From a virus (lineage: Duplodnaviria > Heunggongvirae > Uroviricota > Caudoviricetes > Ackermannviridae): 31,224 nt of DNA. The notes below the pieces were generated by a model that saw nothing but the letters and a program-made list of their open reading frames with translations, was not told where the DNA came from and ran no database searches. The stretch lies in the IMG/VR virus record IMGVR_UViG_2974516482_000001, positions 1 to 31,224 of that record; one strand, written 5' to 3'. Position 1 is the stretch's first letter. Each line of letters begins with the position of its first letter. Position numbers and translations under genes: made by a program. This document shows, piece by piece, positions 1-4,511 of the stretch.

Positions 1-650
1 CATCAAAGTTGTGTCCAAACGTTACAACTCGCATTCAATGTCTTCGTCACGCCGAATACTTGTCCTCTACGCTCGGACCAAACGAGGCTGGCCGACAGAA
101 ACATAACACCACTCATCACTAGAGCGAGGATGTGGTTGATAGCCACGATGTTACATCTCTGTCGAAGAGTGATCACACTTGTCAGATGATCACTGTTTTG
201 CGAACTCGAGAATACTGCGCCTGTCTCGGGTTTCCCCTTAGTTCGGCCTCTCATTGTTCATCCGGTCAGGGAGCTACCCTTGATGACCAGCTTATATTGA
301 GATCTTCGCCAGCGCCCACCAGTGTCTAGAATGTGTAGGCGTCGAGGTCTGCAAGGCATTGCCCTATTTCATACAACGCTCTCTCAAGTACGCAAATCGA
401 AGTTCTCTGGGCTTAACAGGTTCGACCCAACATGTTGTATATCGCCTAACTTACTCATGGGACGGCCACTTCTGTGTACAGACCTTGAGGGTTAAAAGAT
501 ATACCCAAAGAACTTCGATTTGCGTTGTGGGGGCAAACCCCCACACGGCTACTTCTTTGACAGGGATTGCTAGCCCTGGGGATTCCACTGTTTAAGGCTT
601 TATCCCATAACGCCTGAGGCGCGTTTTAACTTATTGAAGCTTGCATAACT
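1..650 (-). ncRNA. Putative large structured ncRNA of unknown class (continues beyond the window start)
   Basis: No credible ORF. 22-bp stem 390-411/504-525 and 18-bp stem 93-110/147-164; their 5 non-Watson-Crick positions are G.U only on the minus strand. Further helices at 168-175/187-194, 264-288, 526-545 and 561-578. Pseudoknot-type pairings 371-377/434-440 and 383-388/484-489. Boundaries are approximate. Confidence 0.6.
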
Positions 651-656
651 GCAAAC

Positions 657-1020
657 TGATGCGCTGTGAGACACATCTGGGAGGGCACTCTGTGGATTCA
701 TTTTACAGCATCCCGTATAGCGGATACCGACCTCGATCAAGTGCCCTCTCAGATGTCGGCGGGAGCTTATTAATCACACCCTCCCGCCTATTTTTAGTGC
801 GCCGAATTTTGTTATGAGGAATCGGAAGACCTCACTGACTTATAGGCTATTACGCCGCCATCAGAACTTCGGAATCATTAGCAGTTATTTGCTTGGTCAG
901 TTTCTAAAAACCCGCAAAGTCGCATCCAACGAGAACGAAAACCTGTTTGAGTCCTAAACCTACCTGTCTTGGTCTCACATCGCTATGAGTGGCCAGGACT
1001 CAAACAGCTTGCCGTTCAGT
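657..1020 (-). ncRNA. tmRNA-like RNA (mRNA-like domain with tag frame; tRNA-like domain non-canonical)
   Basis: Minus strand 882->850 reads GCT AAT GAT TCC GAA GTT CTG ATG GCG GCG TAA (then TAG) = ANDSEVLMAA**. It is preceded by AAAUAACU and has no start codon or SD. Helix over the stop (GGC-GUAAUA-GCC), pseudoknot-like element at ~802-834, promoter at 1027-1052, length ~364 nt. Confidence 0.65.
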
Positions 1021-1026
1021 GAGTTA

Positions 1027-1052
1027 ACTATACTTTGTAACCCGTTATTGAT
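1027..1052 (-). promoter_or_regulatory. Putative early-type promoter ATCAAT-N14-TATAGT driving the tmRNA-like RNA (TSS ~1020)
   Basis: Same spacing as the TTCAAT-N14-TATAAT motif at 2403-2428; AT-rich upstream tract. Confidence 0.6.
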
Positions 1053-1070
1053 AAAACCTTTTATTTTTGT

Positions 1071-1137
1071 TGACGAGGGTGTGGAATCGAACCACACTTC
1101 TGAGCGCTACCCCGTGTCACCAATGCACCACCTCGCC
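1071..1137 (-). ncRNA. tRNA-like element with truncated anticodon arm (not a decoding tRNA)
   Basis: Minus strand GGCGAGG-TG-GTGCATTGGTGACAC-G-GGGTAGCGCTC-AGAA-GTGTGG-TTCGATT-CCACAC-CCTCGTC-A: 7-bp acceptor stem, D-loop GG, canonical TTCGATT T-loop, 11-nt anticodon arm instead of 17, no encoded CCA. Confidence 0.75.
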
Positions 1138-1539
1138 ATCGATTTGCCGGAACTTACGCATCCGGCCTCGTCCTGTCGGTGTTCTTCTGAATCCGGGAAG
1201 ATCAGCAGGAACTATGAATCAAGTTAATTCAACCAACAGGAATCCTCGTGTTGCCCTTTGACGCAACATTATGAACCCTCTATGAAGACTCATAATGTTG
1301 TCGGCGTGATGGAGATTAGCGCCCCCGACCTCCCCTTATATGTTGGTGTCGACTTGCCAACGGGGTGCTCTCTGATTCTGAGATAATCACGCTACAACAG
1401 GGAGTTTCGTTCTCCGACGGTCAAGTGCGTCCACTGACACCAGCGAGGTGGATATTGACTTATGGAGCCGGAGTCCTCGTCCTAGGACTGTGCTTGGCCT
1501 CAGCCTTTACACCGCTGGTCGCCCGACTCTTTACACCAT
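1138..1539 (-). ncRNA. ~400-nt structured RNA with RNase P RNA-like layout (degenerate core)
   Basis: GAGGACUCCGGCUCCAUAAG (1459-1478) resembles GAGGAAAGUCCGGGCUCCAUAGG. CACCGACAGGAC..GCCGG (1161-1181) resembles CACGACAGAACCCGG. P4-like UCCGGC/GCCGGA, P3-like hairpin 1501-1517, CAGAGAGCACCCCG (1361-1374), 11-bp stem 1264-1274/1290-1300. Comparison is from memory of E. coli M1 RNA. Confidence 0.4.
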
Positions 1540-1546
1540 AAAATTT

Positions 1547-1575
1547 ACTATACTACAGCCCAGCTAATTTGAAAA
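1547..1575 (-). promoter_or_regulatory. Putative promoter TTTTCA-N17-TATAGT (TSS ~1539)
   Basis: Sigma70-like spacing; same TATAGT -10 hexamer as the 1027-1052 promoter. Confidence 0.55.
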
Positions 1576-1592
1576 GTCCTCTCCCCTTTGAG

Positions 1593-1739
1593 CTACACTG
1601 CCCACAGCAGTGCGGACGAACCTTCACTCAAAACCGGATGCGCCGAAGTGGGCAACTGTTTACCGGACTGATCGGGTAGACCCAGGAGAGAGCAGGTAAT
1701 CCCGATCAGGAGGATGAGGAGTAACATCATGTAAAACAT
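1593..1739 (-). CDS. 48-aa small hydrophobic protein (MFYMMLLLILLIGITCSLLGLPDQSGKQLPTSAHPVLSEGSSALLWAV)
   Basis: Below the ORF-track cutoff and translated by hand. Strong SD GGGAGGG 6 nt before ATG; N-terminal ~20-aa hydrophobic helix; TAG at 1593-1595. Confidence 0.55.
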   Translation of the reverse strand: MFYMMLLLILLIGITCSLLGLPDQSGKQLPTSAHPVLSEGSSALLWAV

Positions 1740-1796: not shown

Positions 1797-2366
1797 TTAT
1801 TTTAACACTTCTAACTTCACAACACGACGCAGAAGGTAAACATATTCGCCAGCAGCTTCATGCGTCATATAATGGGTAGAAGGTGTGGAATGATTGTTCT
1901 GGGTTTCTTTTAACCCAACGCGTTCAGCCCAACCATTAATAGAGTTCCCATAGAAACCGATAATCGCGCCGAAATAAATGCGCTGGCTCTCTGGTTCTAA
2001 AATATAGTTGACAGTGAAACAGATGTCAGAACGAATAGACTCCAGTTTCATACCAACACGACCTTCGGAGAATTCGTTACGAACATATAAATGACGGAAA
2101 CGATCGCGCCGCGCTTGTGATGATTCTTCCAATTCTTGTCGGAGTGAAGAAGTTACGTCAATATTAAATGAAAATGTTGGATTTTGTAAATCGGAACGGG
2201 CCAACTCTAACGCAGATTCAACAACGCGACGGAAATTGATACTTTTACCTGTCAGGCGTTTCACTTCATCTGTGATTGTTCCAAAAGGGATTTTCGTGGC
2301 GCGTTCCCCTTCGTATTTTGCCAATAAAGGAATAATGTGTTTCATGATTGCTGTGTTAATGTGCAT
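1797..2366 (-). CDS. Hypothetical protein, 189 aa
   Basis: Long ORF with SD GAGG and its own upstream promoter; no family recognised. Confidence 0.85.
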   Translation of the reverse strand: MHINTAIMKHIIPLLAKYEGERATKIPFGTITDEVKRLTGKSINFRRVVESALELARSDLQNPTFSFNIDVTSSLRQELEESSQARRDRFRHLYVRNEFSEGRVGMKLESIRSDICFTVNYILEPESQRIYFGAIIGFYGNSINGWAERVGLKETQNNHSTPSTHYMTHEAAGEYVYLLRRVVKLEVLK

Positions 2367-2729: not shown

Positions 2730-4511
2730 ATGGCCACGCAAACAGTTCCTTCACTCGACGTCAGAGCATTTGAATACATTATTAAACAGCGAATGAAAGC
2801 TGATCCCACCTTTAAAGATTATGACTTTGAAGGTTCTGGTCTTAGTGCGATTATTCGTTTGTTGGCATCTGACGCGAACGCCATAGCCTTTATGCAAAAC
2901 ATGCTTAATGGTGAAGGCCATTTGAAGACAGCAAATCAACGTTCAAACGTCGGTTTATCTGCTGCATTTCTTTCCTACACGCCTGACAACTATCGGGCAG
3001 CATACATGTATGTCAACATCAAAGTTACGCCTTATGACGCCAGCACAGCCCCCAATGAGATCATCATGGATCGGCGCGTAATGTTCGTTGGGGCAAAAGA
3101 CGGCAGTTCCTACAACTTTACTGTTGAGAAACCAGTGTCGGCAACGTTGACTGCAGACGGTTATTACATGTTCAACAATGTAAAGTTGGTACAGGGGAAT
3201 TGGTTGTACAAGACATATGATGTTGAAGGAAGCGCGATTTCAACATATACGATTCCTTCTGGGAATGTCGATATCAATCATATGGTCGTGCAAGTACAAG
3301 AATCAGAGTCTTCCGACGTTTCGACGACATATCAACGTTACAACAGTCCATTTGATCTGAGCCAATATGCCTACCTGTATTTCGTAGAATTGGGTATTGA
3401 TGGTCTGTATGTGTTTGAATTCGGAGATGGTTATCTTTCGCGTCGAGTAGAAGATGGGAACGTCATATTCCTTCAATACTTAGAAACTTCTGGTGCTGAT
3501 GGGAATGATATCACAAGCCTGTCATCAGCGTCATCCATAGGCGGGTTTAACCAGGTCGATGTAGAATTGGTTTCCGAACGTAGCGCAGGTGGAGACGATC
3601 CGGAATCTATTGAGGACACTAAACGGCTGGCTCCTTTAGCTTATCAGGCTGATGGTGCTGCGGTTACAGAAACAGATTATGGTGTATTGACTGAAAGGTT
3701 ATTCTCCAACGTCTCCCGAGCTAAATCATATGGTGGTGACACGCTGTCTCCTCCTGATTCTGGCTATGTTTACATCGCTGTTATACCTTCTGTTGGTGAG
3801 ACACTTTCGGACGCTGAGAAGGCCGATATCGTTGCTGCTCTGGACAAGTATAATGTGGGATCTATCACCCCCAAAGTGGTAGATTCCGAGATCACATATA
3901 TCCAAGTCTCAACGACTATATTTTGGGATCCTACTTCTACAGTCTACGTTGAAGAACAGATGAAAGTTGTTGTTGGAAACAGTATCGTTAAATGGGGTGA
4001 AAATAATCTCGGCGGATTTGACCAATTGTTTGACAAAGAAATATTGCAGGAAGCAATTACAAAAATGGAGCGTTCTATTAACTCGAATATTACTTCGGTT
4101 GGTTATAAACGCCATTTCAAACCCGATTATGGAGTCTTAGACAGTTTTACATTCAGTTATGGAAGAAGTATCAAACCTGGTTCTGTGAAAATAACGGGGT
4201 TCAAACCGCTTCCTGCCGAGGTGGATTTCACTTACTACATGCGCGACAATAATGGCGATTTGAACATGTATAAAGTGAATAACAATGACACGACAAAAGA
4301 GTTTTTAGTTCAAAAAACAGGGGTTGTAGATTATGCAAATGGGGTTGTAGACCTTCAGCAGATCACGGTCTCTAACTATAACCCTGAAGGGGTGACCATA
4401 GTCGTGTTACCGGATGGACTGAACCAGAACATACAGGCTACACAAAACCAAGTATTCAAGATTGGTGATGTGGTTGTTAAGCCAGAGGTGCGCTATGTCC
4501 AAAGATCTTAA
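2730..4511 (+). CDS. gp6: Baseplate wedge subunit, T4 gp6-like (593 aa)
   Basis: DYDFEGSGLS and GGDDPESIED..LAP..YQ motifs of gp6/Baseplate_J. Start moved to ATG 2730 (SD GGAG, downstream of the late promoter). Confidence 0.92.
   Translation: MATQTVPSLDVRAFEYIIKQRMKADPTFKDYDFEGSGLSAIIRLLASDANAIAFMQNMLNGEGHLKTANQRSNVGLSAAFLSYTPDNYRAAYMYVNIKVTPYDASTAPNEIIMDRRVMFVGAKDGSSYNFTVEKPVSATLTADGYYMFNNVKLVQGNWLYKTYDVEGSAISTYTIPSGNVDINHMVVQVQESESSDVSTTYQRYNSPFDLSQYAYLYFVELGIDGLYVFEFGDGYLSRRVEDGNVIFLQYLETSGADGNDITSLSSASSIGGFNQVDVELVSERSAGGDDPESIEDTKRLAPLAYQADGAAVTETDYGVLTERLFSNVSRAKSYGGDTLSPPDSGYVYIAVIPSVGETLSDAEKADIVAALDKYNVGSITPKVVDSEITYIQVSTTIFWDPTSTVYVEEQMKVVVGNSIVKWGENNLGGFDQLFDKEILQEAITKMERSINSNITSVGYKRHFKPDYGVLDSFTFSYGRSIKPGSVKITGFKPLPAEVDFTYYMRDNNGDLNMYKVNNNDTTKEFLVQKTGVVDYANGVVDLQQITVSNYNPEGVTIVVLPDGLNQNIQATQNQVFKIGDVVVKPEVRYVQRS

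What the first reader, a model, noticed from the sequence alone, without database searches (positions are those of the whole stretch)
930..1020. tmRNA-like RNA looks circularly permuted, with its tRNA-like domain zipped shut
The transcript 5' end (GAACGG..CUGUUUGAGUCCU) pairs with the segment resembling the tmRNA D-loop/helix-2a strand (AGGACUCAAACAGG..UCGUUC). The perfect 13-bp core is 943-955/995-1007. It encloses only 39 nt, containing a T-arm-like hairpin and an ACCA but no G3.U70 acceptor stem. The distal GAUGCG/CGCAUC pairing (921-926/658-663) may close the mRNA domain. No canonical T-arm-CCA end is visible downstream. It could be an uncharged decoy for SmpB, S1 or tmRNA-cleaving toxins, or an mRNA-like domain used in trans.
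Basis: inference. Interest (0 to 1): 0.75.

Follow-up and report, generated by a model that had tools for sequence, protein, structure and literature searches.

The report
5' hairpin of headless phage tmRNA
The flagged long stem is a real, conserved hairpin at the start of an unannotated phage RNA that copies only the tag-coding half of the bacterial ribosome-rescue RNA (tmRNA). It is not a rearranged tRNA-like head but a variable front module that folds back over the RNA's conserved leading arm.

Summary
The window is the first 31 kb of a 159-kb ViI/Kuttervirus-type (Ackermannviridae) phage, and the feature lies on the minus strand.

**Observation: confirmed.**
- The 13-bp core (1007-995 / 955-943) extends to a 23-nt arm pair.
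- The fold has z = -5.1.
- 99.4% of cells are paired across 13 distinct Ackermannviridae sequences.

**Interpretation: partly supported.**
- The RNA is tmRNA-like. Its 10-codon tag, ANDSEVLMAA, is kept in frame with synonymous changes across phage lineages.
- I found no chargeable tRNA-like domain.
- "Circularly permuted, tRNA-like domain zipped shut" fails:
  - ARAGORN and Rfam at curated thresholds find nothing. Weak tmRNA_permuted hits score on the unpaired tag region only.
  - ACCA, the T-arm-like hairpin and the distal GAUGCG/CGCAUC pairing are not conserved.
  - An Erwinia relative has a plain short hairpin.
  - T1-like phages start the same RNA about 5 nt before GUUUUCG with no hairpin.

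**What it is.** The hairpin belongs to a long-stem module with a hypervariable cap that abuts GUUUUCG at fixed spacing in many lineages. Its base pairs that conserved motif, which is the first of three collinear blocks complementary to host tmRNA nt 68-104.

**Likely role (inferred).** 5'-end protection or processing, and masking of that arm.

This scan has reported the same RNA family before on other phage DNA.

The parts
1027..1054 (-). Sigma-70-like promoter TTATCA-16-TATAGT. The expected start is near A1020, 3 nt before the hairpin.
   Evidence: The -35 and -10 hexamers are conserved in all Ackermannviridae compared, including Dickeya phage PP35 and Erwinia phage Ea2809. The start site is inferred, not mapped.
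930..1017 (-). The flagged 5'-terminal long hairpin: 5' strand 1017-995, 39-nt cap 994-956 with two small hairpins, 3' strand 955-930.
935..942 (-). GUUUUCGU, block 1 of the conserved 5' arm. It is complementary to E. coli ssrA nt 97-104 (tag codons 3-5). Here it is paired in the base of the hairpin.
   Evidence: (conserved, with rare variants, in every lineage listed, with or without the hairpin).
905..924 (-). Blocks 2 and 3 of the arm: UGCGACU (924-918), complementary to ssrA 86-92 (resume codon context), and UUUGCGGGUUUUUA (918-905), complementary to ssrA 68-81. Block 3 also forms the 5' side of a local PK1-like hairpin.
847..882 (-). Tag reading frame GCU AAU GAU UCC GAA GUU CUG AUG GCG GCG UAA UAG (ANDSEVLMAA plus two stops).
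759..835 (-). Two pseudoknot-like folds after the tag. The first has stems GUGAGG/CCUCAU and CCGA/UCGG. The second has stems CAC/GUG and GGCGGGAG/CUCCCGCC.
   Evidence: The stems covary between lineages (GUGAGG/CCUCAU against GCAAGG/CCUUGU; GGCGGGAG/CUCCCGCC against GCCC/GGGC against GUCCCUGA/UCAGGGA). Pairings were read from the alignment by eye.
673..756 (-). Second long-stem module after the pseudoknots (ACAUCUGAGAGGGCACU ... AGUGCCCUCCCAGAUGU), the same module type as the 5' hairpin.
1071..1137 (-). Separate 67-nt tRNA-like RNA upstream of the promoter, with a stub in place of the anticodon arm. It is not part of the hairpin and lacks G3.U70.
   Evidence: acceptor, D-stem and T-stem covary in Klebsiella phage cp21; the element is replaced by an ORF in Serratia phage IME250.

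Best explanation
The stretch is the 5'-terminal stem-loop of an unannotated, promoter-driven phage RNA. That RNA keeps the messenger half of tmRNA (arm, resume signal, 10-codon tag, pseudoknot-like folds) but has no tRNA-like half. The hairpin is one copy of a recurrent long-stem module with a hypervariable cap. The module sits at a fixed 6-nt spacing before the conserved GUUUUCG motif in many phage lineages and recurs after the pseudoknots. It is not a permuted tRNA-like domain.

Shown: the stem exists and is maintained. The cap varies freely. The hairpin is dispensable, since T1-like phages lack it. The base of the stem pairs the transcript's first nucleotides with GUUUUCGUUC.

Inferred: the hairpin (a) protects or defines the 5' end, because a stem 3 nt from the start is a known RNase E/RppH shield, or it could be an RNase III site. 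It also (b) holds block 1 of the arm paired to a strand that resembles the host tag codons (GAACGAAAA-type against host GACGAAAAC). Blocks 2-3 would then be left free to dock on host tmRNA nt 68-92. The tag frame would then act in trans on host trans-translation.

The confidence of 0.6 is for the whole statement. That the hairpin is not a permuted tRNA-like domain I put at about 0.85. The specific protect-and-mask role I put at about 0.4.
For: - Stem statistics and covariation.
- Promoter 3 nt upstream, conserved family-wide.
- Homology to the general module: the Agtrevirus-type strands GGGCAUUAG.../...GUGCUC-AAACAG-GUUUUCG match GAGCAUUG.../...GUGCUC-UUUCCA-GUUUUCG of other lineages with identical spacing.
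- Caps differ completely between lineages.
- In L021, L041, L043 and L053 the base also pairs G(G/A)CGAAA with UUUUCGUC.
- GUUUUCGU stays conserved in lineages that have no hairpin, so its conservation does not come from the stem.
- Three collinear blocks complementary to ssrA 97-104, 86-92 and 68-81.
- Duplex -35.8 kcal/mol against -27.8 +/- 3.0 for shuffles, with 1 of 200 as good.
- Co-folding keeps the hairpin closed and pairs only the arm 3' of it with ssrA. Hairpin-less arms pair from block 1.
- The tag is always 10 codons, with synonymous variants: GCA AAC GAT AAT ACG against GCT AAT GAT AAC ACG, both giving ANDNT.
- No tmRNA by ARAGORN or at Rfam gathering thresholds.
Against: - Only one independent compensatory event supports the upper stem (Kuttervirus type against Agtrevirus type). 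The basal stem varies on the 5' side only.
- The start site, any processing and RNA stability are unmapped.
- Complementarity to ssrA is modest by energy. 2.3% (this arm) and 0.6% (the L021 arm) of 1,676 enterobacterial 363-nt background windows pair as well.
- Block 3 may be complementary merely because it is homologous to a PK1 strand.
- The host site is nearly invariant in Enterobacterales, so phage-host covariation cannot be tested.
- Co-fold gains are small (-3.5 to -17.8 kcal/mol) and ignore pseudoknots.
- GUUUUCG could instead be an RNase E site (RN|WUU) or a protein site.
- Cap motifs CGAUGUGA and CCARGACA are shared by both Ackermannviridae types and remain unexplained.
Confidence: 0.6

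Rival explanations
1. The hairpin is helix 2 of a circularly permuted tmRNA. The cap is a vestigial tRNA-like domain (T-arm-like hairpin plus a closed acceptor remnant) acting as an uncharged decoy for SmpB, S1 or tmRNA-cleaving toxins.
For: The topology (long stem, then a hairpin with a UUCGAU loop in Agtrevirus-type phages, then a second small hairpin) matches the order P2, T-arm, closed acceptor. Permuted-tmRNA models give the best, though sub-threshold, Rfam hits. One lineage (L043) carries a genuine D-arm plus T-arm in the cap.
Against: The Rfam score comes from the tag region, and the tRNA-domain pairs are mostly non-canonical. There is no 7-bp acceptor and no G3.U70. ACCA is not conserved, and the loop is GCGA in this window. 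Ea2809 has no cap hairpins. T1-like members have no hairpin. The L043 cap has tRNA order, not permuted order.
Confidence: 0.08
2. The hairpin is mainly an RNase III (or other double-strand) processing site. It cuts this RNA out of a long co-transcript of the RNA island, as in rRNA operons and T7 early RNAs.
For: The duplex is about 22-24 bp with small internal mismatches. Like modules flank the messenger core on both sides in many phages. No intrinsic terminator lies on the minus strand between the hairpin and the tRNA cluster about 1.3 kb downstream, apart from one weak terminator-like site at 127-109. The convincing terminator lies after the tRNAs.
Against: A conserved promoter sits immediately upstream, so no 5' cut is needed. 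No cleavage data exist. Stems in other lineages are shorter and mismatched. This rival is compatible with the main explanation rather than exclusive.
Confidence: 0.2
3. The hairpin is a binding site for a phage or host protein or for another RNA. Candidates include the co-oriented 189-aa protein at 2366-1797, or a kissing partner for the conserved cap motifs.
For: Cap motifs CGAUGUGA and CCARGACA are conserved between the two Ackermannviridae stem types although the stems differ. The neighbouring protein belongs to a phage family of unknown function (phrog_3788) and has no Pfam match.
Against: Caps are unrelated in other phage families that carry the same core. The one candidate intramolecular partner I found (UGUGAGAC with GUCUCACA near 672-665) does not covary in Agtrevirus-type phages, read.
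Confidence: 0.12

Closest known systems
One-piece tmRNA (SsrA) of Enterobacterales, Rfam RF00023
   Same: Resume context AUAAAU-GCN, a 10-codon AND...AA-type tag, double stop UAA UAG followed by CCU, then pseudoknot-like folds.
   Different: No acceptor stem, D-loop, T-arm or CCA joined to it. The 5' end is a closed hairpin plus an arm antisense to the host's own nt 68-104. Not detected by ARAGORN or at RF00023 gathering score.
Two-piece (circularly permuted) tmRNAs of Alpha-/Betaproteobacteria and cyanobacteria (RF01849, RF01850, RF01851, merged as RF04321; PMC11915505)
   Same: A structured element precedes the coding part. The tag region aligns weakly to these models.
   Different: Permuted genes carry a full T-arm, acceptor 3' strand and CCA upstream, and an acceptor 5' strand at the start of the coding piece. 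None is present in the cap. Scores are 15-33 bits against cut-offs of 47-84.
CDS-less tRNA-like-only tmRNA of mycobacteriophage DS6A (cited in PMC11915505 as inhibiting host tmRNA when expressed in E. coli)
   Same: A phage keeps only one half of tmRNA and may interfere with host trans-translation.
   Different: It is the opposite half: DS6A keeps the tRNA-like domain without a tag, and this RNA keeps the tag without the tRNA-like domain.
5'-terminal stem-loop stabilisers of bacterial RNAs (for example the ompA 5' UTR; from general knowledge, not checked here)
   Same: A stable stem within a few nt of the 5' end.
   Different: Here the stem also occludes a conserved motif and carries a variable two-hairpin cap. 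The stabilising effect is untested.
Phage T4 stable RNAs C and D in the tRNA cluster (from general knowledge)
   Same: Unannotated structured RNAs co-located and probably co-processed with phage tRNAs.
   Different: Neither is known to carry a tmRNA tag frame, to my knowledge.

Membership tests
Circularly permuted (two-piece) tmRNA | Acceptor piece with T-arm (5-bp stem, 7-nt T-loop), 7-nt acceptor 3' strand and NCCA upstream of the coding piece | tested here: not met
   The cap 994-956 has a 6-bp hairpin with a GCGA loop and a 3-bp hairpin. ACCA is not conserved. ARAGORN, which also searches for permuted genes, finds none.
Circularly permuted (two-piece) tmRNA | Acceptor 5' strand with G3.U70 at the start of the coding piece | tested here: not met
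   No complementary 7-nt strand pair lies in or around the cap.
Circularly permuted (two-piece) tmRNA | Score at or above the Rfam gathering threshold (RF04321 47 bits; RF01849 50; RF01850 84; RF01851 gave no hit) | tested here: not met
   20.7 bits here and 22-33.5 bits in relatives. The score lies in the unpaired tag region.
tmRNA (any form) | Tag reading frame with resume codon, ending in hydrophobic residues plus alanine, then a stop, conserved as coding sequence | tested here: met
   All 43 tags I read across the loci are 10 codons, with synonymous variants for the same peptide.
tmRNA (any form) | Alanine-accepting tRNA-like domain in the same RNA, or in a base-paired partner encoded by the same genome | tested here: not met
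   None lies within about 1 kb downstream. The 67-nt tRNA-like RNA at 1137-1071 has G2.U71/C3-G70, lies upstream of the promoter and is absent in IME250. The tRNA-like RNA at the far end of the island has G3-C70.
tmRNA (any form) | Pseudoknot PK1 just upstream of the resume codon | tested here: inconclusive
   A hairpin CUUUG...CAAAG (UUUGC...GCAAA here) with possible GGGU/GACC pairing is kept. A pseudoknot was not demonstrated.
Long-stem, variable-cap module flanking the headless tmRNA core (defined here) | 3' strand ...GUGCUC/GGACUC + 6 nt + GUUUUCG; a complementary 5' strand; a cap free to vary | tested here: met
   The Kuttervirus type reads AGGACUC-AAACAG-GUUUUCG, the Agtrevirus type GUGCUC-AAACAG-GUUUUCG and other lineages GUGCUC-UUUCCA-GUUUUCG.

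The most novel reading that the evidence does not exclude
The hairpin is a built-in mask, a natural toehold switch. Its 5' strand copies the host tmRNA tag codons (GACGAAAAC-like) and keeps block 1 of the phage's anti-tmRNA arm closed. The arm opens only when blocks 2-3 dock on the resume region of host tmRNA, or when a nuclease opens the stem. The phage RNA is then tethered to the host's charged tRNA-like domain, and its own tag frame is read in place of the host's.
Probability: 0.15. Interest if true: 0.85.

Novelty: new variant of a known kind. Interest (0 to 1): 0.6.

Why it matters
tmRNA is taken to need its tRNA-like and messenger halves together, in one piece or two. Here hundreds of unrelated enterobacterial phages keep a messenger half alone, under coding selection. 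Examples are ViI-like, T1-like, N4-like and Felix O1-like phages and a lambdoid prophage. In many of them a closed hairpin stands where a tRNA-like head would be expected.

Showing that the hairpin is not a hidden or permuted head removes the easy explanation. It sharpens the open question of how a headless tag template is used. The candidate answer, docking on host tmRNA through the adjacent arm, would be a new way for phages to tamper with ribosome rescue and protein tagging.

The result also matters for annotation. These RNA islands are left empty or given spurious small ORFs in GenBank records.

Tried and rejected
- **Standard detectors.** ARAGORN found no tmRNA on the window, the whole 159-kb genome or about 50 related loci. 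Rfam at gathering thresholds found nothing.
- **The 67-nt tRNA-like RNA (1137-1071) as the missing head.** I considered this because Shigella phage DS8 and the E. coli 55989 prophage carry a tRNA-like cassette with a T-arm downstream of their cores, sharing the motif CGAUGGCGAGGU. I rejected it as a dedicated partner. It lies upstream of the promoter, lacks G3.U70, and is replaced in IME250 and L117. Such cassettes sit at variable distances from the core.
- **Long-range pairing of the upstream module's 3' strand with the downstream module's 5' strand, as a helix-2-like closure.** This is possible where the two modules are duplicates (L002). It is impossible in this window and in DS8, where the stems differ. 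The hairpins are therefore local.
- **Distal GAUGCG/CGCAUC closure.** It does not covary.
- **Cap-to-downstream kissing (UGUGAGAC with GUCUCACA).** It does not covary.
- **Intrinsic terminator or attenuator reading of the hairpin plus UUUUCGUU.** The scan does not call it, and the U-tract is only 4 nt.
- **Phage-host covariation of the arm.** Not testable, because ssrA nt 68-104 is almost invariant in 120 Enterobacterales and Pasteurellales species.
- **Sense similarity of the arm to ssrA nt 14-31 (UUCG...UUUGCG).** Too short to weigh.
- **Literature.** No paper was found for these tags, for phage tmRNA mimics, or for Kuttervirus non-coding RNAs. The held supplements of the tmRNA database paper do not list its phage entries.

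Full report
**Context**

The window is bases 1-31,224 of a 159,128-bp virus record. The flagged region is 99.8% identical to Salmonella phage SilasIsHot and 94-97% identical to Det7, CBA120 and PhaxI. The neighbouring genes are baseplate, tailspike and terminase genes, so this is a ViI/Kuttervirus-type member of the Ackermannviridae.

The feature lies on the minus strand, in a stretch of roughly 3 kb without credible genes. That stretch continues across the record ends into a cluster of four tRNA genes (Met, Asn, Ile, Ser), followed by the only convincing terminator.

- The arms 933-955/995-1017 are the second-longest of the 11 inverted repeats reported within 120 nt in the window.
- The fold has z = -5.07.
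- Across 13 distinct Ackermannviridae sequences, 99.4% of cells pair, against 32-50% when partners are slid.
- Two pairs change on both sides between the Kuttervirus type (GAGUCCU/AGGACUC) and the Agtrevirus/Taipeivirus type (GGGCAY/GUGCUC).
- This amounts to one independent compensatory event. The covariation support is real but thin.

**What the RNA is**

A sigma-70-like promoter (TTATCA-16-TATAGT, 1054-1027) lies just upstream. It is conserved in every Ackermannviridae genome compared and places the start near 1020, 3 nt before the stem.

After the hairpin come, in order:
- a conserved arm (942-905);
- a resume context;
- the frame GCU AAU GAU UCC GAA GUU CUG AUG GCG GCG UAA UAG (882-847);
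- two pseudoknot-like folds whose stems covary between lineages.

The core, about 130-150 nt, recurs at 72-85% identity in several unrelated phage groups:
- T1-like phages (Shigella phage DS8);
- N4-like phages (Pollock);
- Felix O1-like phages;
- a lambdoid prophage of E. coli 55989, between the Q antiterminator and holin genes.

In all 43 tags I read across the loci, the tag is exactly 10 codons of the form A-(N/K)-(D/E)-x-x-(V/F/Y)-L-(M/A/I)-(A/V)-A. The same peptide is written with different codons in different lineages. The messenger half is therefore under coding selection, and "tmRNA-like" is justified.

**Why it is not a permuted tRNA-like domain**

- ARAGORN finds no tmRNA, and Rfam finds nothing at gathering thresholds.
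- The weak RF04321 hits (20.7 bits here, up to 33.5 bits in Erwinia phage Ea2809, cut-off 47) take their score from the unpaired resume and tag columns. The modelled tRNA-domain pairs are mostly marked non-canonical.
- The cap has no 7-bp acceptor stem and no G3.U70.
- Its ACCA reads ACCC or AUCC in the other Ackermannviridae type.
- Its first hairpin has a GCGA tetraloop here and a UUCGAU loop there.
- Ea2809 has only a plain short hairpin.
- In DS8 a TTGACA-17-TAGATT promoter ends 12 nt before GUUUUCG, so the RNA starts about 5 nt before the arm with no hairpin. L052, L070, L108 and L036 read the same way.
- The distal GAUGCG/CGCAUC pairing does not covary.

**What the hairpin is instead**

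Many other lineages carry a long stem with consensus GGUAAGAGCAUUG...cap...CAGUGCUCUUUCC. Its 3' strand ends 6 nt before GUUUUCG, which is the same spacing as in the Ackermannviridae, and it shares GUGCUC and GRGCAUU next to the cap. These lineages are L019, L021, L041, L043, L053, L072 and the E. coli prophage.

The same module type recurs directly after the second pseudoknot-like fold. In this window that copy is at 756-673.

Caps are unrelated between lineages. In L043 the cap is itself an anticodon-less tRNA-like unit, with the long stem taking the place of the acceptor stem. That is the opposite of permuted-tmRNA order.

Dickeya phage PP35 keeps the promoter and the first half of the hairpin but has lost the rest of the RNA. 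This suggests that cap regions are recombination breakpoints.

**How it may work**

The base of the stem pairs the first transcribed nucleotides with GUUUUCGUUC. The 5' strand reads as follows:
- GAACGG in this window;
- GAACGAAAA in the Agtrevirus type;
- G(G/A)CGAAA in other families.

GUUUUCGU stays conserved in lineages without any hairpin. Its conservation must therefore have another cause.

Following a lead from earlier notes of this scan, I compared the RNA with E. coli ssrA. Three collinear blocks are complementary to the host RNA:

| Block | Window (minus strand) | Host ssrA nt | Host region |
|---|---|---|---|
| 1 | 942-935 | 97-104 | tag codons 3-5 |
| 2 | 924-918 | 86-92 | resume codon context |
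| 3 | 918-905 | 68-81 | 3' side of pseudoknot 1 |

The statistical support is moderate:
- The duplex is -35.8 kcal/mol against -27.8 +/- 3.0 for shuffles.
- 2.3% of 1,676 background genomic windows pair as well.

Block 3 could be complementary simply through homology to a PK1 strand. The variants of block 2 seen across lineages (GCGAC, GUGAC, GCGGC, GUGGC) are all transitions that would keep pairing with the host through G.U. That is suggestive, not proof.

Co-folding keeps the hairpin closed and pairs only the part of the arm 3' of it with ssrA. Hairpin-less arms pair from block 1 onward.

My reading is that the hairpin is a 5' protective or processing stem that also masks the first block of the arm. 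The tag frame probably acts in trans on host trans-translation. These last steps are inference.

**No hidden head elsewhere**

- The 67-nt tRNA-like RNA at 1137-1071 is a real, covarying structure. It lies upstream of the promoter, lacks G3.U70 and is optional.
- Most Kuttervirus relatives (CBA120 type) carry 333 nt in place of window 753-695. That insert holds two cassettes with a T-arm and a CCA-like end (CUCCAAUCCCA and AACGGCUCCA). This window lacks them, and neither has an alanine identity pair.
- A large tRNA-like RNA at the far end of the island has G3-C70.

**Literature**

I found no description of these tags or of headless phage tmRNAs. The tmRNA database paper reports 79 phage tmRNAs and the opposite case, the tRNA-like-only RNA of phage DS6A (PMC11915505).

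Earlier notes of this scan describe the same RNA family in several other phage genomes. I treated them as leads only.

Noticed in passing
window 1071-1137 (-): A 67-nt tRNA-like RNA with a 7-bp acceptor stem, D-arm and T-arm, but a 3-bp/5-nt stub for the anticodon arm. It has A73 and no encoded CCA. Acceptor, D-stem and T-stem covary in Klebsiella phage cp21. It is replaced by an ORF in Serratia phage IME250 and by a different T-arm cassette in L117.
   Followed up: partly
window 695-753 (-), against L005 (CBA120) 2046-2378: CBA120-type Kuttervirus phages carry 333 nt here in place of 59 nt. The insert holds two stem-closed tRNA-like cassettes with canonical T-loops and CCA-like ends (…CUCCAAUCCCA and …AACGGCUCCA). 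This window, which is Det7/SilasIsHot type, lacks them.
   Followed up: partly
window 390-411 and 504-525: A 22-nt, 95% complementary inverted repeat, the longest in the window. It closes another structured unit of the same minus-strand RNA island.
   Followed up: no
L001 about 1490-1650 (-), roughly G000 157,675-157,835: A large tRNA-like RNA after the four tRNAs. It has acceptor GAGUGUG/CGCACUC, T-arm UCGGG-UUCGAUU-CCCGA and tail UCCCA. It gives the only RF00023 hit in the genome (T-arm only, 13.6 bits). A like cassette (…GUCACUCUCCCA) follows the tag RNA in L036.
   Followed up: partly
L002 (E. coli 55989 prophage) 3850-4380; L003 (Shigella phage DS8) 2990-3130: Downstream of their headless tmRNA cores these elements carry a tRNA-like cassette with a D-arm, a long insert, a T-arm and an 8-9-bp closing stem GUUGUGGUG/C(G/A)CCACAAC. 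The E. coli copy ends in CCCA. RF00023 scores it at 20 bits. The strand GUUGUGG can pair either with the preceding long-stem module or with the 3' end.
   Followed up: partly
L043 upstream module (about -215 to -95 from the pattern site): The cap of the long-stem module before the tag RNA is an anticodon-less tRNA-like unit: a 4-bp D-arm with GG in the loop plus a T-arm GGGUUCGAAUCCC. Modules therefore nest inside one another.
   Followed up: partly
L009 (Dickeya phage PP35) 1800-1900: This Limestonevirus keeps the conserved promoter and the first half of the hairpin (GAACGAAAGCUGUUAGGGUACUUGACAAACAC). It has no arm, tag or pseudoknots, so the tag RNA was lost by a break inside the cap.
   Followed up: no
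GenBank hits: Records named Enterococcus phage Efm 3-10 (OR844942) and Pseudomonas phage Pa-sanjiao (MN871475) are about 96% identical to Kuttervirus over this region. They are probably mislabelled or contaminated records.
   Followed up: no
window 1797-2366 (-): A 189-aa protein co-oriented with the RNA island. It belongs to phrog_3788 (unknown function) and has no Pfam match.
   Followed up: partly
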